Origin: Lachnospiraceae bacterium
GTDB lineage: Bacteria; Bacillota; Clostridia; Lachnospirales; Lachnospiraceae
Reading direction: 5' to 3'
Assembly (NCBI GenBank): GCA_021199235.1
Contig: JAJQIL010000072.1
Coordinates: 1,806 to 65,805, forward strand
DNA: 64,000 bases
Shown here: positions 31,782 to 59,947 of the stretch, piece after piece
Numbering within the stretch: position 1 is the first letter of the stretch
Layout: every line of letters starts with the position of its first letter
Made by a program: the position numbers and the translations under genes
Notes under the pieces: generated by a model
What the model was told of the DNA's origin: nothing
What the model saw: only the letters and a program-made list of their open reading frames with translations
Database searches by the model: none

Positions 31782-33545
31782 GTGGGTAAAGTAATAGGAA
31801 TTGATCTTGGAACGACAAACAGCTGTGTATCAGTAGTAGAAAATGACCAGCCGGTCATTATCCCGAATCCGACAGGAGGGCGCACAACGCCGAGTGTGGT
31901 GGCATTCACGAAGAACGGGGAACGTCTGGTCGGCGACGCGGCGCGGCGGCAGGCCGTGACAAATTCGGGACGTACGATCACATCGGTCAAACGACACATG
32001 GGTACGGACTGGGATATCCGCATTGACGGAAAAGAATACAAGCCGCAGACGATCAGCGCAATGATCCTGATGCAGCTGAAAAAAGACGCCGAGGATTTTC
32101 TCGGGGAGCCGGTGACGGAGGCGGTCATCACGGTTCCGGCGTATTTTAATGATATTCAGCGGCAGGCGACAAAGGATGCCGGACGCATCGCCGGACTGGA
32201 CGTGAAGCGTATCATCAACGAGCCGACGAGCGCGGCGCTTTCCTATGGACTGGATCATGGGGACGCGCAGAAGGTTATGGTCTACGATCTTGGCGGCGGC
32301 ACATTTGATGTCTCGATCATCGAGATCGGAGAGGGACTGATCGAAGTGCTTTCCACCTCCGGAGACAATCATCTGGGCGGCGACGACTTTGACGAGCGCA
32401 TCAGCGGCTGGCTGGTTTCGGAATTCAAGGCCGAGTACCGCATGGATGTTTCCCGTGATTTTGCGGCGATGCAGCGGATCAAAGAGGCGGCGGAGCAGGC
32501 GAAAAAGGAGCTTTCTACCGCAGACAGCACAAATATTGTGCTCCCCTATCTGACACAGATCAAGGGCGAGCCGGTCCATCTGGAGCGTACCCTGACAAGA
32601 AATAAATTTAATGAGCTGACGGAGGATCTGGTGCGGCGCACGGAGATTCCGGTACAGACTGCGCTTTCGGACGCGGGGATCACAGCGGCGCAGCTGGGGC
32701 GTGTGCTGCTGGTCGGCGGCTCGACCAGGATTCCGGCTGTCCAGCAAAAGGTCTTCCAGCTGACCGGCAAAGAGCCGTCTAAGAACATCAACCCGGATGA
32801 GTGTGTGGCGCAGGGTGCGGCCATCCTGGGCAGTACGCTGCAGGGCAATTCCCTGATGGCGGCGGACACCGGGATGGATCTGCTGCTGATGGACGTTACG
32901 CCGTTAAGCCTTTCCATCGAGACGGTGGGCGGCGTAGCAACACGGCTGGTAGAGCGCAACACGACCGTGCCGACCCGCTATTCGCGCGTGTTCTCGACCG
33001 CGGCGGCCTATCAGCGCGATGTGGAGATCAACGTCCTGCAGGGCGAGCGCACCATGGCGCGGGACAACAAGTCTATCGGCAAATTCCGCTTAAAGGGCAT
33101 CCGCCGCGCACCGGCAGGTGTGCCGCAGATTGAAGTGACCTTCGATATCGATGCGAATGGCATCCTGAAGGTTTCCGCGAAAGACCTCGATACGCAGAAA
33201 GAGCAATCCATCACCATCACGGCGGACGACCGTATGTCTGACGCTGAGATCCAGCAGGCGATGCGGGATGCACAGGAATACGCCGGACAGGATGTACAGC
33301 GGCGTGAAGCCATCGAGATCACCAACGAGGCACAGAGCCTGCTTGCCAAAGCCAATCAGGCCTACAAGGAGCGGAAAAAGGAACTGGACAAGAACGCGTC
33401 CAAACAGATCAAGAACGACATCAACGCTCTGCAGAAAGCCCTTTCCAAATTCCGCCTGGACAAGATGACCGATCAGGATCTGGAGAACGTGAAGATGGCG
33501 AAAGCGGCGTTGGAGAGCTCCAGCGCACAGTATCTGGGGATGTGA
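31782..33545 (+). CDS. Hsp70/DnaK paralogue with a short C-terminus
   Basis: [43 protein letters not shown]; GTG start after GGAGG. Confidence 0.92.
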
Positions 33546-33629
33546 CCTGGAAACTGTGATATCCGGAAGGCAATGCCGGAAAGTGGCCGGAGAAAACAGA
33601 AGATTTTCAGTGAAAATAGATTATGCATG

Positions 33630-33664
33630 AAAAAAAGCAGCCACATGACCTGTGACTGCTTTTT
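33630..33664. terminator. Bidirectional intrinsic terminator
   Basis: A7-GCAGCCACA-TGACC-TGTGACTGC-T5. Confidence 0.8.
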
Positions 33665-33697
33665 ATTACACATTCCTGTCGGAACAGACTCCAGAAT

Positions 33698-34678
33698 CTA
33701 AGCCATTACCGCTGTGATCAGCGCCATCTTGTACACCTCGTCTGCGTTGCAGCCGCGGGACAGATCGTTGATCGGTGCGTTCAGACCCTGAAGGATCGGG
33801 CCGTAAGCGTCGAAGCCGCCCAGTCTCTGCGCGATCTTGTAGCCGATGTTGCCTGACTGGATCTCCGGGAAGATGAAGGTGTTCGCCTGACCGGCTACCG
33901 GGGAGCCCGGGAACTTCAGCTGTCCAACCTCAGGAGAAACGGCCGCGTCAAACTGCATCTCGCCGTCTACCTTCATATCCGGATATGCTGCTTTGATCTT
34001 CGCCGTTGCGTTCGCTACCTTTGTCACATCATCGCCCTTGCCGGAGCCCTTCGTCGAGAAGCTCAGCATCGCTACCTTCGGATCGATTCCGAAATAGGAA
34101 GCGGTCTTGGCCGTCTCTACAGCGGTCTCTACCAGCGCGTCCTCATCCGGCGCAATCTGGATCGCGCAGTCGCCCATTGCGATACGCTCTTCCTTGCCGT
34201 CCTTTTCACGGATCAGGATAAAGCTGGAGCTGACGCTCTTGTTGCCAGGTTTGGTCTTGATCAGCTGCAGTGCCGGACGTACTGTATCCGCGGTCGAATA
34301 GGTAGCGCCGCCAAGAAGTGCGTCCGCCACGCCCATCTTTACCAGCATGGTGCCGAAATAGTTGCCTTTCTTCAGGCTCTCGCGGCACTGCTCCTCGGTC
34401 ATTTTGCCCTTGCGCAGCTCGACCATTTTCGCCACCATTTCTTCCATGCCCTCATAGGTCAGAGGATCAAGAATTGTGACTCCGTCGATGCAGAAGCCGC
34501 CTTTTTCAGCTGCTGCCTTTACCTCATCGACATTGCCGACCAGCACCGGCTGCAGGAAATCGCCGCCCTTTACCAGACGATCCGTAGCAGAAAGAATACG
34601 CGCATCCGTGCCCTCGGTAAATACGATCTTCTTCGGGCTCTTTTTCAGTGTTTCGGTAAGTGTCTCAAACAAATCCAT
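33698..34678 (-). CDS. pta: Phosphate acetyltransferase
   Basis: IVFTEGTDARIL, GDCAI, VAMLSFST, DGEMQFDAA, GNIGYKIAQRLG, DLSRGC. Confidence 0.95.
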   Translation of the reverse strand: MDLFETLTETLKKSPKKIVFTEGTDARILSATDRLVKGGDFLQPVLVGNVDEVKAAAEKGGFCIDGVTILDPLTYEGMEEMVAKMVELRKGKMTEEQCRESLKKGNYFGTMLVKMGVADALLGGATYSTADTVRPALQLIKTKPGNKSVSSSFILIREKDGKEERIAMGDCAIQIAPDEDALVETAVETAKTASYFGIDPKVAMLSFSTKGSGKGDDVTKVANATAKIKAAYPDMKVDGEMQFDAAVSPEVGQLKFPGSPVAGQANTFIFPEIQSGNIGYKIAQRLGGFDAYGPILQGLNAPINDLSRGCNADEVYKMALITAVMA

Positions 34679-35022
34679 AGGTTTCGCCTCCGTAGATATT
34701 TATTGTATGTATTTCGGCAAGCGGCAAATCCGCACGCTCCTTCACAGCAGAAAGAGCAGCACAGGCCGTTTTGCCTTCTGCTATCAATTTACCACTAAGT
34801 TTTTTCTATTTCAACAAGTATTTGTATTTTTTCACTGCAAAGAGTTTTTACCGGATTTCATAGACGAATATCATAAATAAAAGCCTGAAAAATATTCTCA
34901 TCCCCCCGGATTTCTGTACTACAATAAAAAAGTCTATTCAGAACAGTTACAAATTTTAAGTTAAGGGAGAATTATATGGCGACAAAATTGACTGATGCGA
35001 CTTCCATTGAAGATATTATAAA

Positions 35023-35106
35023 GGGGATTTGCGTAAACTTTCACAAATAATGAATGGGGATATGCGTTATATTTATAATTGTAAATACGGGGATTCGTGG
35101 TATAAT
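35023..35106 (+). repeat. Degenerate 33-bp-period array (GGGGAT x3) ending in an extended -10 box
   Basis: GGGGAT at 35023, 35056 and 35089; TG-N-TATAAT at 35098-35106. Confidence 0.75.
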
Positions 35107-35131
35107 ATGTTCTGAGGAAGGTGAAACAGAC

Positions 35132-36472
35132 ATGATCAAAACTGTTTTCAGAAGAAAAATATATGATGAAATGCTCGACTGGAAAGAAAGGCGCAGCGAC
35201 AAATATGCTCTTTTGATTAAAGGGGCAAGGCGTGTTGGAAAATCGACTATAGCGAAGGAATTCGCCAGAAAAAATTTCAGGTCATACATTTTGATAGACT
35301 TTGCGCATACCAGCAGAGAAATCATGGAATTGTTTGATGACACATATAATCTGGATTTTTTCTTTTTACAGCTACAGCAATTAACCGGCGTCAGGCTGTA
35401 TAAAAATGAGTCTGTAATTATATTTGATGAGGTCCAATTGCTCCCAAGGGCCAGGCAGGCTATTAAATATCTTGTGGCTGACGGAAGATATAAGTATATT
35501 GAAACAGGGTCACTTTTATCGATCAGGAAAAATACAAAGGATATATTAATTCCCAGTGAAGAGCACAGAATATCAATGTATCCTATGGACTTTGAAGAAT
35601 TTTTATGGGCCATAGGTGATGATATCACGGCGGACACGATCAGTCTTCTTTTAAAAAACAGAAGGGCGGCAGGTAATGCGCTGCACAGAAATCTGATGCG
35701 TATATTCAGATTGTATATGCTGATCGGCGGAATGCCTCAGGCTGTTGAATGCTATCTGGAACATAATAATCTGCAGGCGGTTGACGAAGTAAAAAGAGAA
35801 ATCGTAGATTTATATGAGGAAGATTTTACAAAGATAGACGGTACGGGACTGGCCGGCGATATCTATGATTCGATCCCGGCCAGTCTTACGGGTAATGCAT
35901 CCAGATATTTGTTATCAAACGCAAGAGAGGGCACACGTGCAGAGCAGGTACGTGGATTAATACCGGATATTCTAAGCACATATACGGTAAATATTGCTTA
36001 TCATGCCAATAATCCTGCTGTGGGGATGTCACTTGAAAAGGATGCGGGACGATATAAGCTGTTTACATCAGATGTGGGATTGTTTGTGACTCTTGCATTT
36101 AAGGATAAACAGTATACTGACAATATTATTTATAATAAGCTCCTTTCGGATAAGCTGGAAGCAAATTTGGAATATGTATATGAAAATGCTGTAGCACAGA
36201 TGCTGACAGCGAAGGGCAATCATCTTTTTTATTATACGATGGAGAGTGATACGTCAAATCATTTATATGAAATAGATTTTCTTCTCTCTGTGGGAAATAA
36301 AATTAATCCTGTGGAGGTAAAATCCGGTAACTACAGGAACCATAAATCCTTAGACGTTTTTTGCGATAAATATAGCAGTCGTATCAAAGACAGGTATATT
36401 GTCCATACGAAAGATTATAAGTGGGAGAATGGCATCCATTATTTGCCAATATATATGATCCCGTTTCTATAA
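35132..36472 (+). CDS. AAA_14 ATPase + DUF4143 protein
   Basis: GARRVGKST, IFDEVQ, ETGS, GGMP, EIDF...PVEVKSG, YLPIYM. Confidence 0.88.
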   Translation: MIKTVFRRKIYDEMLDWKERRSDKYALLIKGARRVGKSTIAKEFARKNFRSYILIDFAHTSREIMELFDDTYNLDFFFLQLQQLTGVRLYKNESVIIFDEVQLLPRARQAIKYLVADGRYKYIETGSLLSIRKNTKDILIPSEEHRISMYPMDFEEFLWAIGDDITADTISLLLKNRRAAGNALHRNLMRIFRLYMLIGGMPQAVECYLEHNNLQAVDEVKREIVDLYEEDFTKIDGTGLAGDIYDSIPASLTGNASRYLLSNAREGTRAEQVRGLIPDILSTYTVNIAYHANNPAVGMSLEKDAGRYKLFTSDVGLFVTLAFKDKQYTDNIIYNKLLSDKLEANLEYVYENAVAQMLTAKGNHLFYYTMESDTSNHLYEIDFLLSVGNKINPVEVKSGNYRNHKSLDVFCDKYSSRIKDRYIVHTKDYKWENGIHYLPIYMIPFL

Positions 36473-36574
36473 TTAGATGGACGCACGGCTAAAGTGCAGC
36501 TGACGCCATTTACGCCGTTTTTTCTGGTTAGCATACGAGTAACACCGCCGTCAGCAGGTTTCGTAGCTGATTTT

Positions 36575-36777
36575 ATGGAGGAAACGACAATAGTATCAGG
36601 GAGCTGCGGGAAAGTACAGGCATGAACCGAAAGGAATTTTGCGAATATTTTCAAATCCCTTATAGAACAGTCACAGACTGGGAATTGGGCAACAGACACG
36701 CACCAGAGTACGTGATCCGGCTGCTGGCCTATTACATTCAAACGGAAAACATTCACAAGGAGGCAAGCAGGCAATGA
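36575..36777 (+). pseudogene. Small XRE-type HTH protein; 5' end out of frame (intact ORF only 36622-36777)
   Basis: IRELRESTGMNRKEFCEYFQIPYRTVTDWELGNRHAPEYV; the ATG at 36575 is in another frame. Confidence 0.65.
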
Positions 36778-37757
36778 GCCAATCCAATATTATCATGTAT
36801 ACAACGGAAGATGGTTTGACGAAGATAGAGGCCACTTTTGACGAGGATACGGTATGGCTTTCTATTGATCAGATGGCGGAATTGTTTCAACGAGATAAAT
36901 CAACCATTTCCCGGCATATTAAAAATATTTTTACTGAGGGTGAGCTTTTCAAACCGGCAGTTGTTGCAAAATTTGCAACAACTGCAACTGATGGTAAAAC
37001 CTATCAAGTTGAGTATTATAATCTCGATGTTATAATTTCTGTCGGTTATCGGGTGAAATCCCTGCGAGGGACACAATTCCGCATATGGGCGAGTGGTATC
37101 CTGAAAGAGTATATGAAAAAAGGATTTGCGCTGGACGATGATCGCTTGAAGCGATTGGGCGGTGGCAATTACTTTGATGAGTTGCTGGCCCGCATACGTG
37201 ACATTCGTTCTTCTGAAAAGGTTTTTTGGCGCAAGGTTCTGGAGATTTATGCTACCAGCATTGATTATGACCCAAAGGCAGAGTCTTCTATCTTATTCTT
37301 TAAGCAGGTGCAGAACAAAATGCATTGGGCAGCACATAAGCACACGGCGGCAGAAATTGTGTATGAACGAGCGGATGCAGATAAGGAAAATATGGGGCTG
37401 ACCTCCTGGTCAGGGAAACAGATTAGACGTGCAGATACGGAGATCGCCAGGAACTATCTGACACAGTCGGAACTGGATGCGTTGAATAAAATCGTGACGG
37501 CGTATCTGGATATTGCAGAAGTTCGTGCTTTGGAGCATGAACCCATGTATATGAAAGACTGGCTGGAAACGATTGATGATTATCTGAAAATGACACGGCG
37601 GGATATATTGTCTACAAAGGGACGTGTCACTCATCAGCAGGCAATCCAGAGAGCCCATGAGGAATATGCAAAATATCAGAAGAAGCAGGATGAGCAGCTG
37701 TCCCTTGTCGAACAGCATTTTATAGAGAGTATAAAAGAATTGGAGGCACTGGAATAA
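36774..37757 (+). CDS. Virulence RhuM family protein
   Basis: WLSIDQMAELF, YYNLDVIISVGYRVKSLRGTQFRIWA, LARIRDIRSSEK. Confidence 0.9.
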   Translation: MSQSNIIMYTTEDGLTKIEATFDEDTVWLSIDQMAELFQRDKSTISRHIKNIFTEGELFKPAVVAKFATTATDGKTYQVEYYNLDVIISVGYRVKSLRGTQFRIWASGILKEYMKKGFALDDDRLKRLGGGNYFDELLARIRDIRSSEKVFWRKVLEIYATSIDYDPKAESSILFFKQVQNKMHWAAHKHTAAEIVYERADADKENMGLTSWSGKQIRRADTEIARNYLTQSELDALNKIVTAYLDIAEVRALEHEPMYMKDWLETIDDYLKMTRRDILSTKGRVTHQQAIQRAHEEYAKYQKKQDEQLSLVEQHFIESIKELEALE

Positions 37758-37902
37758 TTTGACGGATGACACATGACGTGTTTTTTGACTGCGGGAAGGG
37801 ATGGATTAAAAAAGGATTACTTAAATGAAGACAGACAGATTGATTGGAATTTAATCGATATTGCTGCAGAAAGCAATCAAAAACCAGCCATTTGGTGATA
37901 AT

Positions 37903-38178
37903 ATATATCCTTCTTATGCCTGCTTTGCCTATGAACGTATGATGCCGAAATTAAATACGGAAAATCCAGAAGTGAGAGAGTATTTCTGCAAGGTTGGACA
38001 GTATTGGGTAAAAGAATTTGGCATTGATGGGTGGAGACTGGATGTTGCCAGCGAAATAGATGATGGATTTTGGAGAGCTTTTCGTAAATCGGTAAAATCA
38101 GTCAATCCGGATGCAATCCTGATTGGCGAGGTCTGGGAGAGTGCTGGTCACTGGCTGCAGGGGGATATTTTTGATTCC
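37903..38178 (+). pseudogene. Internal fragment of a GH13 (neopullulanase-like) enzyme
   Basis: MPKLNTENPEV...GIDGWRLDVASE...GEVW catalytic motifs; no N- or C-terminus. Confidence 0.85.
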
Positions 38179-38626
38179 ACATTATGATCTTGGATCTGCG
38201 GACCGGTTGAAAGGTGTGATGCAGAGCCTTCAGGAAGCCGGAATTCCGCTGGAGGATCAGTATATCTGGCTGGGAGAATCTACCCGGGCAGACGGGTATC
38301 GGATGTCCAGTCAGCTTTTGGAGGAACGAATGCTTCCGGAAGCGATAGTATGTGCCAATAACTACATAGCGCTTGGCTGTGTGGCAGCAATACAGGAGAG
38401 AAAAATGCGGATACCGGATGATATAGGCGTGATCGCGTTTGATGATTATCCTTTTTCGCAGATAATTGATCCGCCGCTGACGGTGGTAGACATTAATGTA
38501 CGCGATATGGGGGTACAGGCAGGCAAGTTTCTTGTCCAGATGATCCATAACCCGAATATGCAGATACAGACTTATGTTACCACGTCTAATTTACTTATTC
38601 GGCAATCGACAAGAGAGCAGCGGTAA
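38172..38626 (+). pseudogene. C-terminal fragment of a LacI-family regulator
   Basis: PEAIVCANNYIALG...IPDDIGVIAFDD...PPLTVV; no HTH. Confidence 0.85.
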
Positions 38627-38670
38627 CATACGTGTGATAGGATATCCATGTTGAAAAATGCGGCAATCTG

Positions 38671-38885
38671 GGCTTCGGTATCCATCAGGCCGCCGCGCGC
38701 ACAGTTGATCAGGATCACGCCGTCCTTCATTTTGGCGATGGTTTCCCTGTTTATCATATGGCGGCTCTGGTCGTTTAAGTTCAGATGGATGGTGATGATG
38801 TCGCATTCGCGATAGATGGTTTCCACATCTGTGTAGGTCAGCCAGTGGGATGCCTTTCCGGGATGCAGGTTATATCCGATCGTGC
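38671..38885 (-). pseudogene. Internal fragment of a D-2-hydroxyacid dehydrogenase
   Basis: CDIITIHLNLNDQSRHMIN...MKDGVILINCARGGL. Confidence 0.85.
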
Positions 38886-39397
38886 GGGTTCTGGCTGCCG
38901 CACCGGACGGGGAGGAACTGACGATAGAGATTGTTGAGAAAGGGCGGCTCTTTGGCGAATCCTCCTTTTTGAGCAAAAGTGTACGTCCGACTACTGTAAG
39001 AGCGGTCACGGAGGTGGACCTGATCTGCTGTACGATCGAACAACTGATTCCCTGCCTGTGCCGGAATCCGGAGATCCTGACGAAGGTGCTGCAGCATTGT
39101 TCAGCCACTATGAACCATCTTTCCTATGCGCTTCATTCCTGGCGCTTTCTGGATCGTTACCAGCGGGTTGCTTCCTTCCTGCTGGAATAGACGGAAACGG
39201 ATAATCCGGATAAGGAGATTACAGAGCAGTGTCTGCCGTATTCCCATGAGGAAATTGCCATGTGTCTTGGAATCGCCCGGCCGACAGTAAGCCAGGTGCT
39301 GAAAACTTTTGAGCGGAACGGATGGGCGCGATGCGCCTATCGAAAGGTGTATGTGCTGGACAGGGGAGCGTTGGCGGAAAGCGGGGGAATAAAATGA
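38882..39397 (+). pseudogene. Crp/Fnr regulator, 5'-truncated, with an internal TAG
   Basis: LFGESSFL...RPTTVRA; TAG at 39188-39190; in-frame continuation SHEEIAMCLGIARPTVSQVLK (HTH). Confidence 0.85.
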
Positions 39398-39555
39398 AGG
39401 ACACAAGGGAGATCATTATGGATTTCAACGGCATCGGCTGCGTATACACTGTTGCGGGAGGCAACCCAAAAGCGGGAACTGAAGCTAAAGCAAAGACAGG
39501 ACAGGCAGCTGTGAGTGTACGGAACAGCTCCCAAAAACGGACAGGAGGCGCTGTG

Positions 39556-47286: not shown

Positions 47287-47357
47287 TTTTTGAATCTTAC
47301 GCCCAATGTCTGTGCAGTCTCAGTCTATATAGAGCCAAAATTCCTGGAATCACACCA

Positions 47358-47493
47358 ATAATCATGTCTGGGTGTGATTAAACGACCACAATAATCTGGA
47401 ATATGTGCATTTTTAGTGGAATAATAATCTAAAAAAAGTGCGAAAATATCGAAATGATAATCTTGCATTTGTGCAAATTCTCATGTATAATCC
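47358..47493 (+). repeat. Degenerate 33-bp-period array ATAATC-N8-GTG overlapping the promoter
   Basis: ATAATC at 47358, 47391, 47424 and 47457 (exact 33), then 47487 (30); GTG at offset +14 in four units. Confidence 0.85.
47463..47491 (+). promoter_or_regulatory. Sigma-A-like promoter
   Basis: TTGCAT-17 bp-TATAAT. Confidence 0.65.
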
Positions 47494-47572: not shown

Positions 47573-48934
47573 ATGGAGAAGCTTATGCGGAGAAAAATAT
47601 ACGATACATTACTCGAATGGAAACACCGTTCCGGACAGACCGCGCTGTTGATCGACGGAGCAAGGCGGGTCGGAAAGAGCTACATTGCCGAAAAGTTTGC
47701 CAGGGAGAATTATAAATCCTATATCCTGATTGATTTCAACCGCGCAAGCCGTCAGGTGCAGGAGCTGTTTGAAAATTATCTGGATGATCTGGACACATTT
47801 TTTCTGTATCTGTCAGGCTATTATAATGTACGTCTTTATCAGGGAGAGACGCTGATCATATTTGACGAGGTGCAGATGTTCCCGCGGGCGAGAGGAGCCA
47901 TCAAATATCTGGTAGCGGACGGCAGATATGCCTATCTGGAAACAGGTTCTCTTATGTCGATACGGAAAAACGTTCGGGACATTGTAATCCCTTCCGAGGA
48001 GGAACATGTCTATATGTATCCCATGGATTTTGAGGAATTTCTGTGGGCCATGGGAAATGAGACGCTGATGCCCCTGATTCGCTCCTGTTATGAGAAAAAG
48101 CGTCCGATGGGGCAGGCGATGCACCGGAAAGCGATGGATTATTTCCGGCAGTATCTGATTGTCGGCGGGATGCCGCAGGCAGTGGAAGCCTATCAGGATA
48201 AAAGGGATTTCACCGAAGTAGACCGCATAAAGAGAGGAATTCTCACACTTTATCGGGAAGACATCCGCAAGCATTCCGCCGGAAATGAGTTGGAGGTCGA
48301 GGCTATTTTTGATCTGATACCGGCGCAGCTGTCCCGGCATGAGAAAAAGTTCCGCCTGAAGGACATCCGATCGGGGGCGAGAACAAGGCAATACGAGCAG
48401 CCTTTCTTCTGGCTGGCAGATGCCATGATCGTAAATAACTGCTACAATTGTTCCGAGCCGAACGTCGGACTGAAAATGAATATGGATCGGAAAACCATGA
48501 AGTGTTATCTGGCCGACACAGGTCTGCTGATCAGCCACGCCTTTGACGAGAAGGGCATTGTTTCGGAGGAAATCTATCGAAAGCTGTTATTTGACAAGCT
48601 TACGGTCAATGAAGGCATGCTGATGGAAAACATCGTGGCGCAGATGCTGGTGGCTTCCGGGCACAAACTCTACTTTTTCTCAAAATGCTCGCGCACAGAT
48701 GCCAGCGCAAGGATGGAGATTGACTTTCTGATCGCAAAAAGCAGAATCACCAGTGCACATAACATTTCACCAATCGAAGTAAAATCCGGTGAGCGGTATA
48801 CGTTATCTTCTCTGAAAAAGTTCCGGATGAAGTATGGCGGGTATATGGATATGCCGGTCGTGCTGCACACGAAGGACTATAAGGAAGAAAACGGAATCCT
48901 GTATCTGCCGATTTATATGACTCCGCTGCTGTGA
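47573..48934 (+). CDS. AAA_14 ATPase + DUF4143 protein (paralogue of 35132)
   Basis: GARRVGKS, IFDEVQ, ETGS, GGMP, EIDF...PIEVKSG, YLPIYM. Confidence 0.88.
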   Translation: MEKLMRRKIYDTLLEWKHRSGQTALLIDGARRVGKSYIAEKFARENYKSYILIDFNRASRQVQELFENYLDDLDTFFLYLSGYYNVRLYQGETLIIFDEVQMFPRARGAIKYLVADGRYAYLETGSLMSIRKNVRDIVIPSEEEHVYMYPMDFEEFLWAMGNETLMPLIRSCYEKKRPMGQAMHRKAMDYFRQYLIVGGMPQAVEAYQDKRDFTEVDRIKRGILTLYREDIRKHSAGNELEVEAIFDLIPAQLSRHEKKFRLKDIRSGARTRQYEQPFFWLADAMIVNNCYNCSEPNVGLKMNMDRKTMKCYLADTGLLISHAFDEKGIVSEEIYRKLLFDKLTVNEGMLMENIVAQMLVASGHKLYFFSKCSRTDASARMEIDFLIAKSRITSAHNISPIEVKSGERYTLSSLKKFRMKYGGYMDMPVVLHTKDYKEENGILYLPIYMTPLL

Positions 48935-48995: not shown

Positions 48996-50499
48996 ATGAC
49001 AAGACTGAAAAAATCTGTTACATTAAAGACCAGTACAACGGATGAACACAGCGGGGATGGCTCTTATAAGACGCATCTCAATCAGTATCATGTTATCTAT
49101 ATAGATATTATCTGGTTTATATCGCAGCTTCTCAGTCAGGGCAAAAGCATAGACCAGATCGTGCTGCTGATGCAGAGTCAGGTGATCGAAGAGCTTGCGA
49201 GTGATTATCCGCAGGTAAAAGGCGGGACAGACCTTCCGACTGCGCTTTTTCAGATCGCGGAGTCTACTGGGCGGCAGTTCGTTTTTCTGATTGATGAGTG
49301 GGATGCGATTTTTCGAGAAGCAGCTGATAATAGTCTTGTGAAAGAGCAGTATTTGAATCTGCTTCGGGGCTTATTCAAAAGTCCTGTGACCAGCAGGGCT
49401 ATTGCTGTGGCATATATGACTGGCATCCTTCCAATTAAAAAATATGGAAAACAGTCGGCCCTGACCGATGTTCTGGAGCTTACTATGGTCAATCCTGGGA
49501 ATCTGGCCTGTTATGTAGGCTTTACAGAAGATGAAGTGAAGGCTCTCTGTAAAGAACATGAGTTGAATTATGAGGATATGAAACGCTGGTATGATGGATA
49601 TTCGTTTGATGACAGCGGATCTGTCTATAATCCGAATTCTGTCATGGAGGCAATCTCCATGCGTAATTACGATACGTATTGGGCGAATACGGAAACATAT
49701 GAGTCTCTGAAATCTTATATAGAGGAAGACTTTGACGGAATTCAGAGTGCTCTGAAAAGTATGCTGAGCGGACAGGATGTTCCTGTCAATATACGGAAAT
49801 TTCAAAACGACATGAGCATTCTGAAAAACAGGGATGATGTTTTTACTTTGCTTATCCATCTGGGATACCTGGCATATGACAGGAATACAAAGATGGTACG
49901 CATTCCAAATGAGGAAATCCGACAGGAATTTATTACCGCTATCGAAGACAGTGAGAAACACGCAGAGCTCGCAAGACTGATTGTACGGTCCAGACAACTT
50001 CTAAAGGATACACTGGCAATGCGCGAGGATGCTGTGGCAGAAGCAATCGAGTCGGTACATCAGTCTTCGGCTGCACCTCTGTTTTACAAAAAGGAAAGCC
50101 GCGCAATATAAAATCGCTGCGCGATTGGCGCGGCCTTCGTCCATACTCGCTGCACGAGTACGGACATGTAATGAGCAGGCACTTCGAAGCGTGGTTCGCA
50201 CGGCATATATGGTTTGCATAGATGAGTATGCGGAAATTCAGGAGCTTCCTACCGGCCATGGATATGCAGATCTGGTTTATCTGCCCCGGGCAGGCTCGCC
50301 CTTACCGGTACTTCTGATTGAACTGAAATGGAATGAATCAGATGACGGTGCGATTGCACAGATTAAAGATCGTAAATATCCGAAACAGTTGGAAAACCTG
50401 CGGCATGATATTCTTCTGGTTGGGATTAATTATTCAGAAAAAGATCCGAATAAAAAGCATACCTGTAAAATAGAAAAGCAGACGATCCAAAACAGGTAA
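48996..50499 (+). pseudogene. AAA-ATPase-like/PD-(D/E)XK nuclease protein, N-truncated and frameshifted by an insertion
   Basis: FVFLIDEWDA, MTGILPI, GYADLVYLP...LIELKWN; Walker A absent; split at 50090. Confidence 0.85.
50093..50168 (+). mobile_element. Family-1 element copy C, inserted in a coding sequence
   Basis: Removing 50090-50168 (79 bp) restores PLFY-NNEQALRSVV. Confidence 0.88.
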
Positions 50500-58084: not shown

Positions 58085-59947
58085 ATGAGCAGTGGTATGA
58101 ATACCATACAATACAGGATACTTGCAGCTTTCCTTGCGGTCATGTTTTTTGTTTCTGCCGAAGTTTCTTCCCACTCGATTGTTCTGGCTGATGAAGCGGT
58201 TGTGCTGGAACCGCAGGAAACAGAAAGTCTCACCACCGAACAGAAATTAAACCAAAATGACGAAGACCTCGCCATCGAGCAAAGCTTGATTCAGAATGGT
58301 GAGGCTCTCCAAATCGACAGTATTGGAGAGGTGTCTTCCTCCGATATTCAGGATTCCGTTTTGGAATCTGTAGATTCATCTGCTTATTCCAGCCAGACAG
58401 GAGCAGAAACGGTCTCCCTTTCCATTGATATGGATCATGTGTATGAAGGAATGGAACTATCTTATAAAGATGGATATGTTCCATCAATAAAAGAAAATAC
58501 AGTTTCTCTTGTAATTCCATTTGTGGCAGATACCCCGGTTGAGAATAACCAATTGACAGTGACTATGGAAACAACCTCTGATTCTCCTTTTGAAAAAGTG
58601 GAGTATAGGGAAGAAGTGTCATTACAGACATATCGGTTTGAGTCGGACGGCACTTTGGAAAGCGTGGACGCATATCTCTTTCAAGCCGAATTTACGCTTG
58701 CGGATGATTACCAGTCAGGGCAGTATCCGGTCACAGTGAAAGCGATCGCTTATTCTGCTTCCAGTGTGAAATCTGAGATGATTTGCCGAATGACAGTGAC
58801 CCTGGAATCCGATTCCCGGCAACAGACAGAGGGCGAGACAGAGCCTGATTCGGAATCTGAAGCAGAAAGCGAGACTGAATCCGAAACAGAATCCGAAAGT
58901 GAATCTGAAACAGAAACGGAGTCGGAATCTGAAACAGATTCAGATTCTTCATATGACGACGCATCTTCCGGTACCACTTATTACTCTTCTGGCGGCAGTT
59001 ACAGCAGCAGTTCCGGCAGCAGTGCGGTGAAACATCAGCCGCATATTTTGCTGGAGGAATGCTCGCTTAGCGGAGTTCAGCTTCCGGCTGGGGAGCAGAT
59101 GGACTTTACTGCAAGGTTTCAGAATACGAGTGATGACCAGACGGTGTACAGTCTGAAAATCACGGTAAATACAGCAGATGAGAATGTTGCGCTTTCATCA
59201 ACCTCTTATTATTATGATCAGGTAGCTCCGCAGGAAGTGATCACACTGGAAAACACGATTGCCGCATCAGCTGCAGCTACGCAAAAAGTTACTGCCTTAA
59301 GCTATGCTTTCGTGTATGAAACATCAGACGGAATCTCCTTAAGTGATTCGGAAGAACTGTTTTTTGACATCAGTCAGGAAACTCAGGTTTCTATCGAAGA
59401 TTTCAACCTGTCAGATTATGTGTACTCGCTGGAAACGGTAACTGCGACGCTGGAGATCCGTAATACCGGACGCAGCCCGGTTTACAATGTACAGGTATCG
59501 TTAGAAGCGGATGGACTCATCGCAACAAATACGGTCTATGCCGGAAACATGGAAGCAGGAACTTCCAGCGATGAGACGATTAAGATTTATGTCAGTAATT
59601 TAAACGATAAAGACGAATCATCGCAGGCAGAAAACTCCGATATCGCCAGTGCTGAGACTGCATATGGCTCCACGACAGGGCTGCTTACTCTTACATGGGA
59701 GGATGCTTATGGGACAGTTTACACCGAGACGCAGGAATTTACCACGACGATCGCAGCACCGCAGGTGGTGGAGCTTTCTGTTGAAGCAGAAGAAGAGAGT
59801 ACTTCAAACCAGTGGTGGGCAGTGACGATAGTAATTCTGATTTTGTTTTTCCTGATCCTGATTGCTGTACTTGTACGAAAACTTACAAGAAAACGCCGCC
59901 AGCTGGAAGATTTGCTTGCAACTATGGAAACTTTATCAATCGGATAG
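58085..59947 (+). CDS. Secreted acidic protein with CARDB/COG1361-like Ig folds and a C-terminal TM anchor
   Basis: Signal peptide; (ES/ET)n tract ~58835-58950; IRNTGRSPVYNVQV; C-terminal TM followed by basic residues; RBS GGAGG. Confidence 0.65.
   Translation: MSSGMNTIQYRILAAFLAVMFFVSAEVSSHSIVLADEAVVLEPQETESLTTEQKLNQNDEDLAIEQSLIQNGEALQIDSIGEVSSSDIQDSVLESVDSSAYSSQTGAETVSLSIDMDHVYEGMELSYKDGYVPSIKENTVSLVIPFVADTPVENNQLTVTMETTSDSPFEKVEYREEVSLQTYRFESDGTLESVDAYLFQAEFTLADDYQSGQYPVTVKAIAYSASSVKSEMICRMTVTLESDSRQQTEGETEPDSESEAESETESETESESESETETESESETDSDSSYDDASSGTTYYSSGGSYSSSSGSSAVKHQPHILLEECSLSGVQLPAGEQMDFTARFQNTSDDQTVYSLKITVNTADENVALSSTSYYYDQVAPQEVITLENTIAASAAATQKVTALSYAFVYETSDGISLSDSEELFFDISQETQVSIEDFNLSDYVYSLETVTATLEIRNTGRSPVYNVQVSLEADGLIATNTVYAGNMEAGTSSDETIKIYVSNLNDKDESSQAENSDIASAETAYGSTTGLLTLTWEDAYGTVYTETQEFTTTIAAPQVVELSVEAEEESTSNQWWAVTIVILILFFLILIAVLVRKLTRKRRQLEDLLATMETLSIG

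What the first reader, a model, noticed from the sequence alone, without database searches (positions are those of the whole stretch)
35023..35106. 33-bp-period degenerate array upstream of the first AAA_14/DUF4143 gene
GGGGAT recurs at exactly 35023, 35056 and 35089, and units 1 and 2 align further (GGGGATTTGCGTAAACTTT versus GGGGATATGCGTTATATTT). The array ends at the extended -10 box. The paralogue at 47573 has the same period with a different motif.
Basis: seen in the sequence. Interest (0 to 1): 0.62.

Follow-up and report, generated by a model that had tools for sequence, protein, structure and literature searches.

The report
Phased repeat array before ATPase-nuclease gene
Three copies of a short DNA box spaced exactly 33 bp apart lie on the promoter of an uncharacterised ATPase-nuclease gene. 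The same layout, with a different box for each gene, recurs across this gene subfamily in several bacterial phyla, so the boxes are most likely the protein's own docking sites and give a direct way to study a very common but untested "phage-defence candidate".

Summary
GGGGAT starts at 35023, 35056 and 35089. The third unit runs into an extended -10 (TGgTATAAT, 35098-35106), and the gene starts at 35132. Shuffles of the window give 0.23 such equal-spaced triples and none at period 33.

It is one, rather degenerate, instance of a general rule.
- In this genome 12-13 of 15 paralogues of a ~445-aa AAA_14/DUF4143 subfamily (24-61% identical) carry 3-4 direct repeats at 32-34 bp. Each has its own motif and overlaps its promoter.
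- The top autocorrelation period upstream is 32-34 bp in 66 of 76 relatives from five phyla and 43 of 57 IMG/VR relatives, against 5% of 2597 control genes.
- Orthologues (77-85% identical) in bins named as other phyla keep AAYGGGGATTTGCGT at exactly 33 bp, while the spacers are free.
- Canonical ~400-aa DUF4143 genes lack the array.

The protein model shows an ORC/Cdc6/MuB-like AAA+ domain, a winged helix and an intact PD-(D/E)xK nuclease. It matches PADLOC PDC-S01.

My best reading (0.55) is a phased operator array bound head-to-tail by the cassette's own product, which represses its own promoter. Binding is untested. Three covariation tests did not tie motif changes to the winged helix. I found no published description.

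The parts
35023..35038 (+). Array unit 1, GGGGATTTGCGTAAAC. This is the copy that best fits the orthologue consensus AAYGGGGATTTGCGT.
35056..35071 (+). Array unit 2, GGGGATATGCGTTATA, 33 bp after unit 1.
35089..35104 (+). Array unit 3, GGGGATTCGTGGTATA, 33 bp after unit 2. It fills the promoter spacer and runs into the -10. It differs from the orthologues' last unit (GCGT to GTGG), and that change creates the TG of the extended -10.
35079..35106 (+). Sigma-70-like promoter: TTGTAA (35079-35084), a 16-nt spacer, then TGgTATAAT (35098-35106).
   Evidence: 10 of 12 matches, TG present
35114..35123 (+). Shine-Dalgarno-like GAGGAAGGTG, 8 nt before the start codon.
   Evidence: read from the sequence
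35132..36472 (+). AAA_14/DUF4143 ATPase-nuclease gene, 446 aa. Walker A is G36-K37 and Walker B is D99-E100. The winged helix spans about residues 240-312. The PD-(D/E)xK motif is E380-x-D382 ... E395-x-K397. It matches PADLOC PDC-S01.
34932..36527 (.). Accessory segment holding the array and the gene. It is absent from a same-genus relative whose flanks are 89% (pta side) and 96% (RhuM side) identical. That relative has 377 unrelated bp in its place.
47357..47491 (+). Array of the second paralogue: four units (A/G)ATAATCT..GTGC starting at 47357, 47390, 47423 and 47456. The last unit overlaps TTGCAT (47463-47468), 17 nt, then TATAAT (47486-47491).
47573..48934 (+). Second AAA_14/DUF4143 paralogue, 48-49% identical to the first. 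ATG 47585, preceded by GGAGA, is the likelier start.

Best explanation
The three GGGGAT boxes are a phased operator array that belongs to a self-contained single-gene cassette: array, promoter and ATPase-nuclease gene.

Proposed mechanism: each ~12-16-bp box is read by one copy of the cassette's own protein, probably through its winged-helix domain. Because the boxes are direct repeats at a fixed 33 bp (about three helical turns), the protomers line up head to tail. This is the way AAA+ ATPases of the ORC/Cdc6/DnaA/MuB type oligomerise. The promoter-proximal box fills the spacer between -35 and -10, so occupancy should block RNA polymerase. The result would be negative autoregulation of a potentially dangerous nuclease.

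Shown here:
- the array is real and non-random;
- the period, but not the motif, is conserved across a subfamily down to 25% protein identity and across several phyla;
- each paralogue has a private motif;
- orthologues keep motif and spacing while the spacers drift;
- the array overlaps the core promoter;
- the protein model has AAA+, winged-helix and intact nuclease modules.

Inferred, not shown:
- that binding goes through the winged helix;
- that binding represses transcription;
- that the oligomer is head to tail.
For: 1. Non-randomness. There are 6 equal-spaced hexamer-triple loci in the window against 0.23 in shuffles, and none at period 33.

2. Generality in this genome.
- 12-13 of 15 subfamily paralogues (24-61% identical) have 3-4 direct repeats at 32-34 bp.
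- Each has its own motif. Examples are GGGGATTTTCGGCA, TATTGAAATAATCAT, GAAAAAGCGGACA and AAAGTCCGCATGAAAAATGT.
- 11 of about 16 non-coding period-32-34 loci in the 3.47-Mb genome lie upstream of these genes.

3. Generality elsewhere. The top period is 32-34 bp in 66 of 76 relatives from Bacillota, Bacteroidota, Spirochaetota, Succinivibrionaceae and Eggerthellaceae. It is 32-34 bp in 43 of 57 IMG/VR relatives at 25-57% identity. The control figure is 5.0% of 2597 genes.

4. Selection on box and spacing.
- Orthologues 77-85% identical all carry 3-4 copies of AAYGGGGATTTGCGT at exactly 33 bp with unrelated spacers. Two of them are in bins named Bacteroides uniformis and Avigastranaerophilus.
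- Over 61 arrays the median within-array identity is 0.83 in the core and 0.41 in the spacer.

- Long motifs occur as clusters only at their own promoter.
- DNA homology between orthologous loci covers only the array and the gene.
- The cassette is an indel relative to a close relative.
- The only cassette-specific factor is the encoded protein.

6. Position. The last unit lies between -35 and -10 in the window and in its orthologues. In a crude scan the best promoter lies within or at the end of the array in most loci.

7. Protein.
- The AF2 model has pLDDT 89.5, with AAA+, lid, a helix-plus-beta-hairpin winged helix (about 240-312) and a PD-(D/E)xK domain.
- The best structural neighbours are MuB-DNA filaments, Avs5, MalT, RFC and Orc1/Cdc6-DNA complexes.
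- The catalytic residues are invariant.

8. Co-divergence. Array motif classes track protein clades. Motif distance rises with protein divergence in 38 disjoint pairs (rho 0.58, p = 1.5e-4).
Against: - No binding or expression data exist.
- Three attempts to tie motif change to the winged helix failed or were confounded. A partial Mantel scan shows no peak there. Mutual-information columns (287, 301-306, 371-376) are confounded by phylogeny. In 38 independent pairs no domain shows excess divergence with motif change.
- Co-divergence alone is expected from simple co-inheritance.
- The window's own array is degenerate: unit 3 has 3 mismatches in 12.
- One paralogue (C131) has no array, and one (C26) has it 188 nt upstream.
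- An orphan array stands before an unrelated gene.
- In 16 of 40 loci some units lie downstream of the -10. That fits repression, but it shows the geometry is not fixed.
- 33 bp is about 112 Å, farther than neighbouring AAA+ domains can reach on straight DNA. Direct protomer contacts would therefore need DNA bending, or a footprint of about one unit per protomer.
Confidence: 0.55

Rival explanations
1. The array is the protein's assembly or parking platform rather than mainly a transcriptional operator. An ATP-dependent oligomer of the ATPase-nuclease nucleates on its private array. It is held there inactive, or loaded onto DNA from there. Effects on transcription are secondary.
For: The structural neighbours are DNA-loaded AAA+ oligomers: MuB filaments, ORC and STAND proteins. 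There are 3-6 units at strict phasing. Units lie both upstream and downstream of the -10. The nuclease and ATPase motifs are intact.
Against: The consistent overlap with the core promoter is most simply explained by regulation. No data bear on oligomer state. This reading is not exclusive of the best explanation.
Confidence: 0.15
2. The array is intrinsic promoter architecture, read by host factors or by DNA shape. It would consist of phased A-tracts and repeated -35-like TTG elements that curve DNA or recruit RNA polymerase, with no role for the encoded protein.
For: Many units contain A-runs and TTG or -35-like hexamers such as TTGAAA and CTTG. The region is AT-rich.
Against: The conserved cores are paralogue-specific and often G/C-rich (GGGGAT, CGGACA, GTCCGCATG), which curvature does not explain. 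Fifteen different motifs coexist in one genome. The same motif is kept when the cassette sits in bins named as different phyla with a different promoter grammar: the Bacteroidota loci have TAnnTTTG promoters downstream of the array. Only 5% of other upstream regions of this genome have their top period at 32-34 bp.
Confidence: 0.08
3. The array is an iteron-type replication origin or a centromere-like site of a mobile element, with the Orc1/Cdc6-like ATPase as its initiator or segregation protein.
For: Direct repeats lie next to the gene of an ORC/Cdc6-like AAA+ winged-helix protein. The cassette is accessory.
Against: This genome carries about 15 such cassettes, and the contigs examined also carry housekeeping genes. 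Only 48 of 72,556 plasmid records encode a relative, all on replicons of 24 kb or more where it is annotated simply as an ATPase. The protein carries an intact nuclease. The cassette holds only the array, the promoter and one gene, so no separate unwinding region or second set of sites belongs to it.
Confidence: 0.04
4. The array marks the end of a mobile cassette. It would hold recognition or cleavage sites that the ATPase-nuclease uses to move or home its own gene.
For: The cassette is an indel between close relatives. Near-orthologues occur in bins named as different phyla. A nuclease plus a MuB-like ATPase recalls transposition helpers.
Against: There is no second end, no terminal inverted repeat and no target duplication at the junctions with the relative, which has 377 unrelated bp at the site. 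The paralogues are old, at 24-61% identity. The array sits on the promoter at only one side of the gene.
Confidence: 0.06
5. The repeats are products of chance or of recent tandem duplication, with no function.
For: The window's array is degenerate and Tandem Repeats Finder does not report it.
Against: Shuffles give 0.23 such loci per window. The period is conserved across hundreds of millions of bases of unrelated genomes. Spacers are saturated while cores and spacing are kept.
Confidence: 0.02

Closest known systems
PADLOC phage-defence candidate PDC-S01 (Pfam AAA_14 + DUF4143; COG1373)
   Same: The gene is a member. PADLOC models match at 7e-100. Pfam AAA_14 scores 84.4 bits and DUF4143 44.7 bits, both over their cut-offs. 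Published surveys describe the family as an ATPase fused to a PD-(D/E)xK nuclease and as the fourth most common 'defence' system in prokaryotes (PMC12988326, PMC3424549).
   Different: The published descriptions concern only the protein and its abundance. None of the papers holding 'DUF4143' or 'PDC-S01' that I checked (three and three) mentions an upstream repeat array. Defence activity is unproven: one member tested in E. coli B against T7, T5 and T4 was not among the four candidates that protected (bioRxiv 10.1101/2024.09.26.614923).
Orc1/Cdc6 initiators with origin recognition boxes, and DnaA with arrayed DnaA boxes
   Same: The protein has an AAA+ module followed by a winged helix. Foldseek hits include Orc1-DNA complexes 2v1u and 2qby (probability 1.0). 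Repeated recognition sites lie next to the protein's own gene. DnaA also represses its own promoter through such boxes (my own knowledge).
   Different: TM-scores are low, at 0.25-0.32. This protein carries a C-terminal nuclease. The sites are direct repeats at 33 bp on a promoter, not inverted boxes around an unwinding element. There are many cassettes per genome, and there is no evidence of replication.
Iterons of theta-replicating plasmids with their Rep proteins (P1, F, pSC101, R6K, RK2)
   Same: Both have 3-6 direct repeats with a conserved core and a fixed helical phasing beside the gene of the presumed binding protein. Both have private specificity per element. Autorepression through sites overlapping the rep promoter is typical (my own knowledge).
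   Different: The period is 33 bp rather than about 22 bp. The protein fold is AAA+ rather than the WH1-WH2 Rep fold. The cassettes are not on minimal replicons: 48 of 72,556 plasmids, all large.
Earlier notes of this scan on '33-bp phased operator repeats of DUF4143 ATPases'
   Same: They describe the same rule: period 32-34, private motifs, a position at the promoter, and occurrence across phyla. One note covers the second array of this very window.
   Different: These are unchecked AI notes, not literature. Two of their claims were not reproduced here. First, the array is not found in 'almost every' DUF4143 member; canonical ~400-aa members lack it. Second, I found no residue-level link to the recognition helix.

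Membership tests
PDC-S01 / AAA_14-DUF4143 ATPase-nuclease | N-terminal AAA_14 P-loop domain with Walker A and B | tested here: met
   PF13173 E = 8.5e-24, 84.4 bits against a cut-off of 27. G36-K37 is invariant in both alignments. D99-E100 is invariant in A1 and at least 90% conserved in A2.
PDC-S01 / AAA_14-DUF4143 ATPase-nuclease | C-terminal DUF4143 (PD-(D/E)xK fold) domain | tested here: met
   PF13635 E = 1.5e-11, 44.7 bits against a cut-off of 28.1. The E380-x-D382 ... E395-x-K397 motif is conserved. The model shows a beta-rich C-terminal domain at 365-445.
PDC-S01 / AAA_14-DUF4143 ATPase-nuclease | Match to the PADLOC PDC-S01 profiles | tested here: met
   PDLC04786 E = 7.2e-100 over residues 6-444.
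PDC-S01 / AAA_14-DUF4143 ATPase-nuclease | Protection against phage | not testable with these tools
   The literature calls it unvalidated (PMC12988326). One tested member was not among the protecting candidates (10.1101/2024.09.26.614923).
Phased promoter array of the ~445-aa DUF4143 subfamily (rule established here) | At least 3 direct repeats at a 32-34-bp period within about 300 bp upstream of the gene | tested here: met
   Units start at 35023, 35056 and 35089.
Phased promoter array of the ~445-aa DUF4143 subfamily (rule established here) | The array overlaps or abuts the core promoter | tested here: met
   Unit 3 lies between TTGTAA and TATAAT. The geometry is the same in orthologues.
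Phased promoter array of the ~445-aa DUF4143 subfamily (rule established here) | The motif is private to the cassette and conserved in orthologues, with free spacers | tested here: met
   Orthologues carry AAYGGGGATTTGCGT three or four times. Other paralogues have other motifs. The single 12-mer is not rare in the genome, but it clusters only here.
Autoregulatory operator bound by the adjacent gene's product | The gene product binds the sites specifically | not testable with these tools
   This needs EMSA, footprinting or ChIP. The indirect covariation tests were inconclusive.
Autoregulatory operator bound by the adjacent gene's product | Binding changes transcription of the gene | not testable with these tools
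No expression data were available.
Plasmid iteron origin | The repeats lie in the origin of an autonomous replicon and are needed for its replication | tested here: not met
   There are about 15 cassettes per genome, and the contigs examined also carry housekeeping genes. Only 48 of 72,556 plasmids have a relative, all 24 kb or larger.
Plasmid iteron origin | Rep protein of the WH1-WH2 (RepA/RepE/pi) fold | tested here: not met
   The fold is AAA+, winged helix and nuclease.
Orc1/Cdc6-ORB origin | AAA+ plus a C-terminal winged helix as the only DNA-binding modules, with inverted boxes around an unwinding element | tested here: not met
   The repeats are direct only. The protein has an extra nuclease domain. 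TM-scores to Orc1 are 0.26-0.29.
CRISPR array | Repeats of 23-50 bp separated by unique spacers of similar length, with cas genes or a leader | tested here: not met
   The repeat core is about 12-16 bp and the whole period is 33 bp. There are only 3-6 units. The array sits on a promoter.
Known RNA family | Match to an Rfam model, or a stable conserved fold | tested here: not met
   No Rfam match at E <= 1. The folding z-score is -1.09.

The most novel reading that the evidence does not exclude
The ~445-aa DUF4143/PDC-S01 proteins would be sequence-addressed AAA+ nucleases. Each carries a private DNA 'address' of about 14 bp, and the 33-bp-phased array in front of its own gene is the native substrate on which an ATP-dependent head-to-tail oligomer forms, one protomer per 33 bp. 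The array would then act both as autorepressor site and as the resting platform of the enzyme. Loss of occupancy, or assembly on foreign DNA carrying similar phased words, would switch the nuclease on. The 15 or more differently addressed copies in one genome would form a repertoire of specificities.
Probability: 0.15. Interest if true: 0.9.

Novelty: new variant of a known kind. Interest (0 to 1): 0.72.

Why it matters
PDC-S01 (AAA_14 + DUF4143) is reported as the fourth most common candidate defence system in prokaryotes and the most frequent single defence locus in rumen genomes. Its function and ligand are nevertheless unknown, and the one published phage test I found did not list it among the protecting candidates.

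A conserved, cassette-specific DNA element with strict 33-bp phasing gives the first concrete and cheap handle on the family. It supplies a defined DNA ligand for binding, footprinting and structural work. It supplies a natural specificity panel: two cassettes with different boxes in this window and about 15 in this genome. It also yields a testable regulatory model.

The element matters for annotation as well. It marks true gene starts and promoters of these cassettes and separates the ~445-aa subfamily from canonical DUF4143 genes.

Tried and rejected
1. Covariation between box sequence and the winged helix was tried three ways.
- A partial Mantel scan along the protein gave no peak at 240-312.
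- Mutual information with hand-assigned box classes put the top columns at 287, 301-306 and 371-376, but the classes coincide with clades.
- Thirty-eight disjoint nearest-neighbour pairs showed motif distance tracking whole-protein divergence (rho 0.58), with no domain giving an excess.
- I therefore do not claim a recognition code.

2. An EM search for a component common to all arrays gave only a loose frame (A-rich, TG, about 7-8 nt, GYG) with at most 0.63 bits per column. Its null control failed to run properly, so the frame is not claimed.

3. Hierarchical clustering of motif distances collapsed into one cluster and was useless.

4. The promoter-phase scan had an edge bug that missed promoters close to the anchor, including the window's own. 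I use it only qualitatively and rely for the window.

5. The RNA-level reading is rejected: there is no Rfam hit and no folding signal.

6. The 24-codon mini-ORF at 34976-35050 was considered as a leader peptide. Orthologous loci share no DNA homology upstream of the array, so it is not treated as a gene. I did not check the orthologous loci for a comparable ORF.

7. The mobile-element-end reading was examined at the junctions with relative G010. There is no target duplication or inverted repeat, and 377 unrelated bp lie in its place. A weak tblastn hit to a DUF4143 C-terminus was found there (E = 0.001 in a tiny database) and was not pursued.

Full report
**1. The observation**

The sequence shows GGGGAT at 35023, 35056 and 35089. 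The repeat finder reports three 16-nt copies at 33-bp spacing, GGGGATTTGCGTAAAC / GGGGATATGCGTTATA / GGGGATTCGTGGTATA. Units 1 and 2 align over 22 nt at 77%.

The third unit runs directly into TATAAT (35101-35106). TG precedes it at 35098-35099, and TTGTAA lies 16 nt upstream at 35079-35084. The promoter scan lists this site with 10 of 12 matches. A GAGGAAGGTG ribosome-binding site (35114-35123) and ATG 35132 follow. Translation from 35132 gives a 446-aa protein with Pfam AAA_14 and DUF4143.

The paralogue has (A/G)ATAATCT at 47357, 47390, 47423 and 47456. Its last unit holds TTGCAT, 17 nt, then TATAAT (47463-47491).

In the whole 64-kb window only six loci have a hexamer three times at equal spacing for periods 10-60. 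Two are true tandem repeats, two are low-complexity, and two are these arrays. Dinucleotide shuffles give 0.23 such loci per window and none at period 33 in 40 trials.

**2. It is an instance of a rule: this genome**

The assembly (G000, 161 contigs) has 26 DUF4143 matches. Fifteen form a ~445-aa subfamily whose members are only 24-61% identical to each other.

Wrapped at 32-34 bp, the upstream regions of 12-13 of the 15 show 3-4 direct repeats that end at or overlap the promoter. Each has a different motif. Examples:
- GGGGATTTTCGGCA (the closest paralogue, on C161)
- TATTGAAATAATCAT
- TGCCTTTTCGTG
- GAAAAAGCGGACA
- GGTTGGAAAAACAC
- CTTGGAAAAATGACAA
- AAAGTCCGCATGAAAAATGT
- AAAAGTCCCTCAT

Across the 3.47-Mb genome, about 16 non-coding loci have hexamer triples at period 32-34, and 11 of them lie in front of these genes. 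Long motifs occur as clusters only at their own promoter.

**3. The rule holds elsewhere**

A scan of one genome per species returned 80 relatives. They come from Lachnospiraceae and other Bacillota, Bacteroidales, Treponema and Sphaerochaetaceae, Succinivibrionaceae and Eggerthellaceae.
- The strongest autocorrelation period in the 300 bp upstream is 33 in 62 and 34 in 4 of the 76 testable loci.
- In IMG/VR contigs, with relatives 25-57% identical, it is 32-34 in 43 of 57.
- The same statistic on 2597 other upstream regions of this genome gives 5.0%.

The scope has a limit. In an even sample of the phylum, 12 canonical DUF4143 genes of ~390-425 aa show no such array, and one of them has a 23-bp array instead. 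The longer members there (about 430-475 aa) show a top period of 33 in only 3 of 13, plus weak 32-34 peaks in 3 more. Eight of the nine distant DUF4143 genes of this genome lack the array. One has a 23-bp array, and one merely shares its divergent neighbour's array.

**4. Evidence of selection**

Orthologues of the window gene (77-85% identical) carry three or four copies of AAYGGGGATTTGCGT at exactly 33 bp, and the last copy abuts the -10 (GCGT|TATAAT). Two of these orthologues are in bins named Bacteroides uniformis and Candidatus Avigastranaerophilus. Their spacers are unrelated.

DNA homology between these loci and the window runs only from within the array (35020-35049) to the stop codon (36465-36481).

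Over 61 arrays, pairwise identity among units has a median of 0.83 in the best 16-nt core and 0.41 in the remaining 17 nt. In 38 arrays the spacer is below 0.45. So the units are old, and only the box and the spacing are kept.

The window's own array is a worn example. Its promoter-proximal unit reads GGGGATTCGTGG where orthologues have GGGGATT(T/C)GCGT. The change creates the TG of the extended -10.

**5. The cassette is accessory**

A same-genus relative (G010) is 89% identical to the window over 33484-34931 and 96% identical over 36528-37902. It has 377 unrelated bp in place of 34932-36527.

Another relative lacks 34858-39537, and three more have no DUF4143 gene beside pta. No target duplication or terminal repeats are visible at the junctions. 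The neighbouring gene is a RhuM-family protein, PADLOC candidate PDC-S05.

**6. The protein**

Walker A (G36-K37), Walker B (D99-E100) and a PD-(D/E)xK motif (E380-x-D382 ... E395-x-K397) are invariant or nearly so.

The AlphaFold2 model has pLDDT 89.5 and pTM 0.89. It shows four modules:
- an AAA+ core (1-160);
- lid helices (164-235);
- a helix-loop-helix plus beta-hairpin module typical of a winged helix (about 240-312);
- a beta-rich C-terminal domain (365-445).

Foldseek places it next to MuB-DNA filaments, the STAND proteins Avs5 and MalT, clamp loaders and Orc1/Cdc6-DNA complexes, with probabilities near 1 but TM-scores of 0.25-0.35. There is no PDB sequence match and no NCBIfam model. 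PADLOC's PDC-S01 models match at 7e-100.

**7. Mechanism**

The boxes differ between 15 cassettes in one cell. They stay the same when a cassette is found in bins named as another phylum. Only the array and the gene are shared between such loci.

Direct repeats imply protomers in the same orientation, which suits the head-to-tail contacts of AAA+ oligomers.

The fixed 33 bp is about three helical turns. It is close to the footprint of an Orc1-type protomer that touches DNA with two modules. That comparison rests on my own knowledge of Orc1-ORB complexes.

The promoter-proximal box sits in the -35/-10 spacer, which is the position of a repressor.

I therefore favour negative autoregulation by a phased oligomer of the gene's own product, with confidence 0.55. 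A related reading is that the array is mainly an assembly or parking platform (0.15).

Other readings are less likely.
- Intrinsic promoter architecture (0.08) does not explain private G/C-rich cores.
- A replication or partition site (0.04) fits poorly: there are about 15 cassettes per genome and only 48 of 72,556 plasmids carry a relative, all on large replicons.
- A mobile-element end (0.06) lacks a second end.
- Chance (0.02) is excluded.

**8. What I could not show**

Motif classes follow the protein tree. In 38 disjoint nearest-neighbour pairs, motif distance rises with protein divergence (rho 0.58, p = 1.5e-4). But neither that test, nor a partial Mantel scan, nor mutual information localises the signal to the winged helix. 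Co-inheritance alone would give the overall correlation.

There is no Rfam family and no RNA-fold signal in the region.

**9. Comparison with what is known**

Three of the four papers that hold 'DUF4143' and three of the seven that hold 'PDC-S01' were checked at each mention of the term. They classify the domain as PD-(D/E)xK (PMC3424549) and count the family as one of the most abundant candidate defence systems (PMC12988326, PMC13356809). One reports a phage test in which the chosen PDC-S01 was not among the protecting candidates (10.1101/2024.09.26.614923). None mentions an upstream array.

Earlier notes of this scan report the same rule in other genomes and for the second array of this window. 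They are unchecked AI notes that I read after forming my reading. I confirm the rule for the ~445-aa subfamily. I do not reproduce the claims that nearly all DUF4143 genes have it or that it tracks recognition-helix residues.

In kind, the element is a new variant of the iteron or self-operator theme attached to an ORC-like ATPase-nuclease.

**10. Verdict**

The finding is real, functional by comparative evidence, and apparently unpublished. It turns an abundant family of unknown function into something that can be tested directly. Interest is 0.72.

Noticed in passing
G000:C2:51013-51111 (own genome, outside the window): An orphan array of three AATCTTGAAGAAA boxes at 33 bp. This motif class is seen upstream of DUF4143 genes in other genomes. 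Here it reads towards an MBL-fold hydrolase gene (C2:50139-50954, minus strand), and no cognate DUF4143 gene is in the assembly.
   Followed up: partly
L006 (G000:C11, about 130-190 bp upstream of the gene at C11:2233) and L149: Two members of other DUF4143 subfamilies carry arrays with a 23-bp period (for example TCGGAAAAAATAT.C.GCCAA, and GACAAACACTTGAATTAAAAA) instead of 33 bp.
   Followed up: partly
34976-35050: A 24-codon ORF (MATKLTDATSIEDIIKGICVNFHK) with a strong AAGGGAG ribosome-binding site overlaps array unit 1. Orthologous loci share no DNA homology with this stretch. It is probably spurious.
   Followed up: partly
L070:3181-3330: Downstream of an intact orthologue there is a second copy of the GGGGATTTGCGT array, followed only by the last part of the gene (..PIEVKSGNYR..). 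This is a tandem cassette with an internal deletion.
   Followed up: partly
34858-39537: The region beside pta varies between close relatives. G010 lacks only the DUF4143 cassette, and G019 lacks 34858-39537, including the RhuM gene. This suggests a hot spot for accessory or defence-candidate genes.
   Followed up: partly
G000 whole genome: The genome holds 26 or more DUF4143 genes, whereas only 34 of 121 evenly sampled genomes of the phylum have any at E <= 1e-20. This is a marked expansion.
   Followed up: no
G000:C130:60310-60445: Four nearly perfect 34-bp tandem repeats (TTTCATTTTTCGTAAC.GTTCAGTAC.TTCGCAG) lie in a non-coding stretch next to a LysR-like gene. They are unrelated to DUF4143 genes.
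   Followed up: no
17739-17826 and 58853-58938: True tandem repeats of 21 bp (4.2 copies) and 24 bp (3.6 copies) elsewhere in the window. They were not examined further.
   Followed up: no
48996-50111: An ORF directly after the second paralogue matches only part of Pfam AAA-ATPase_like (PF09820, profile positions 75-197 of 201). It may be a truncated second ATPase-nuclease type.
   Followed up: no
L008 (G000:C26, upstream of the gene at C26:18110): This paralogue's array (AAAAATGTGA three times) lies 188 nt upstream of the start, with a GC-rich stretch between them. In the other paralogues of this genome with an array the distance is at most about 85 nt.
   Followed up: no
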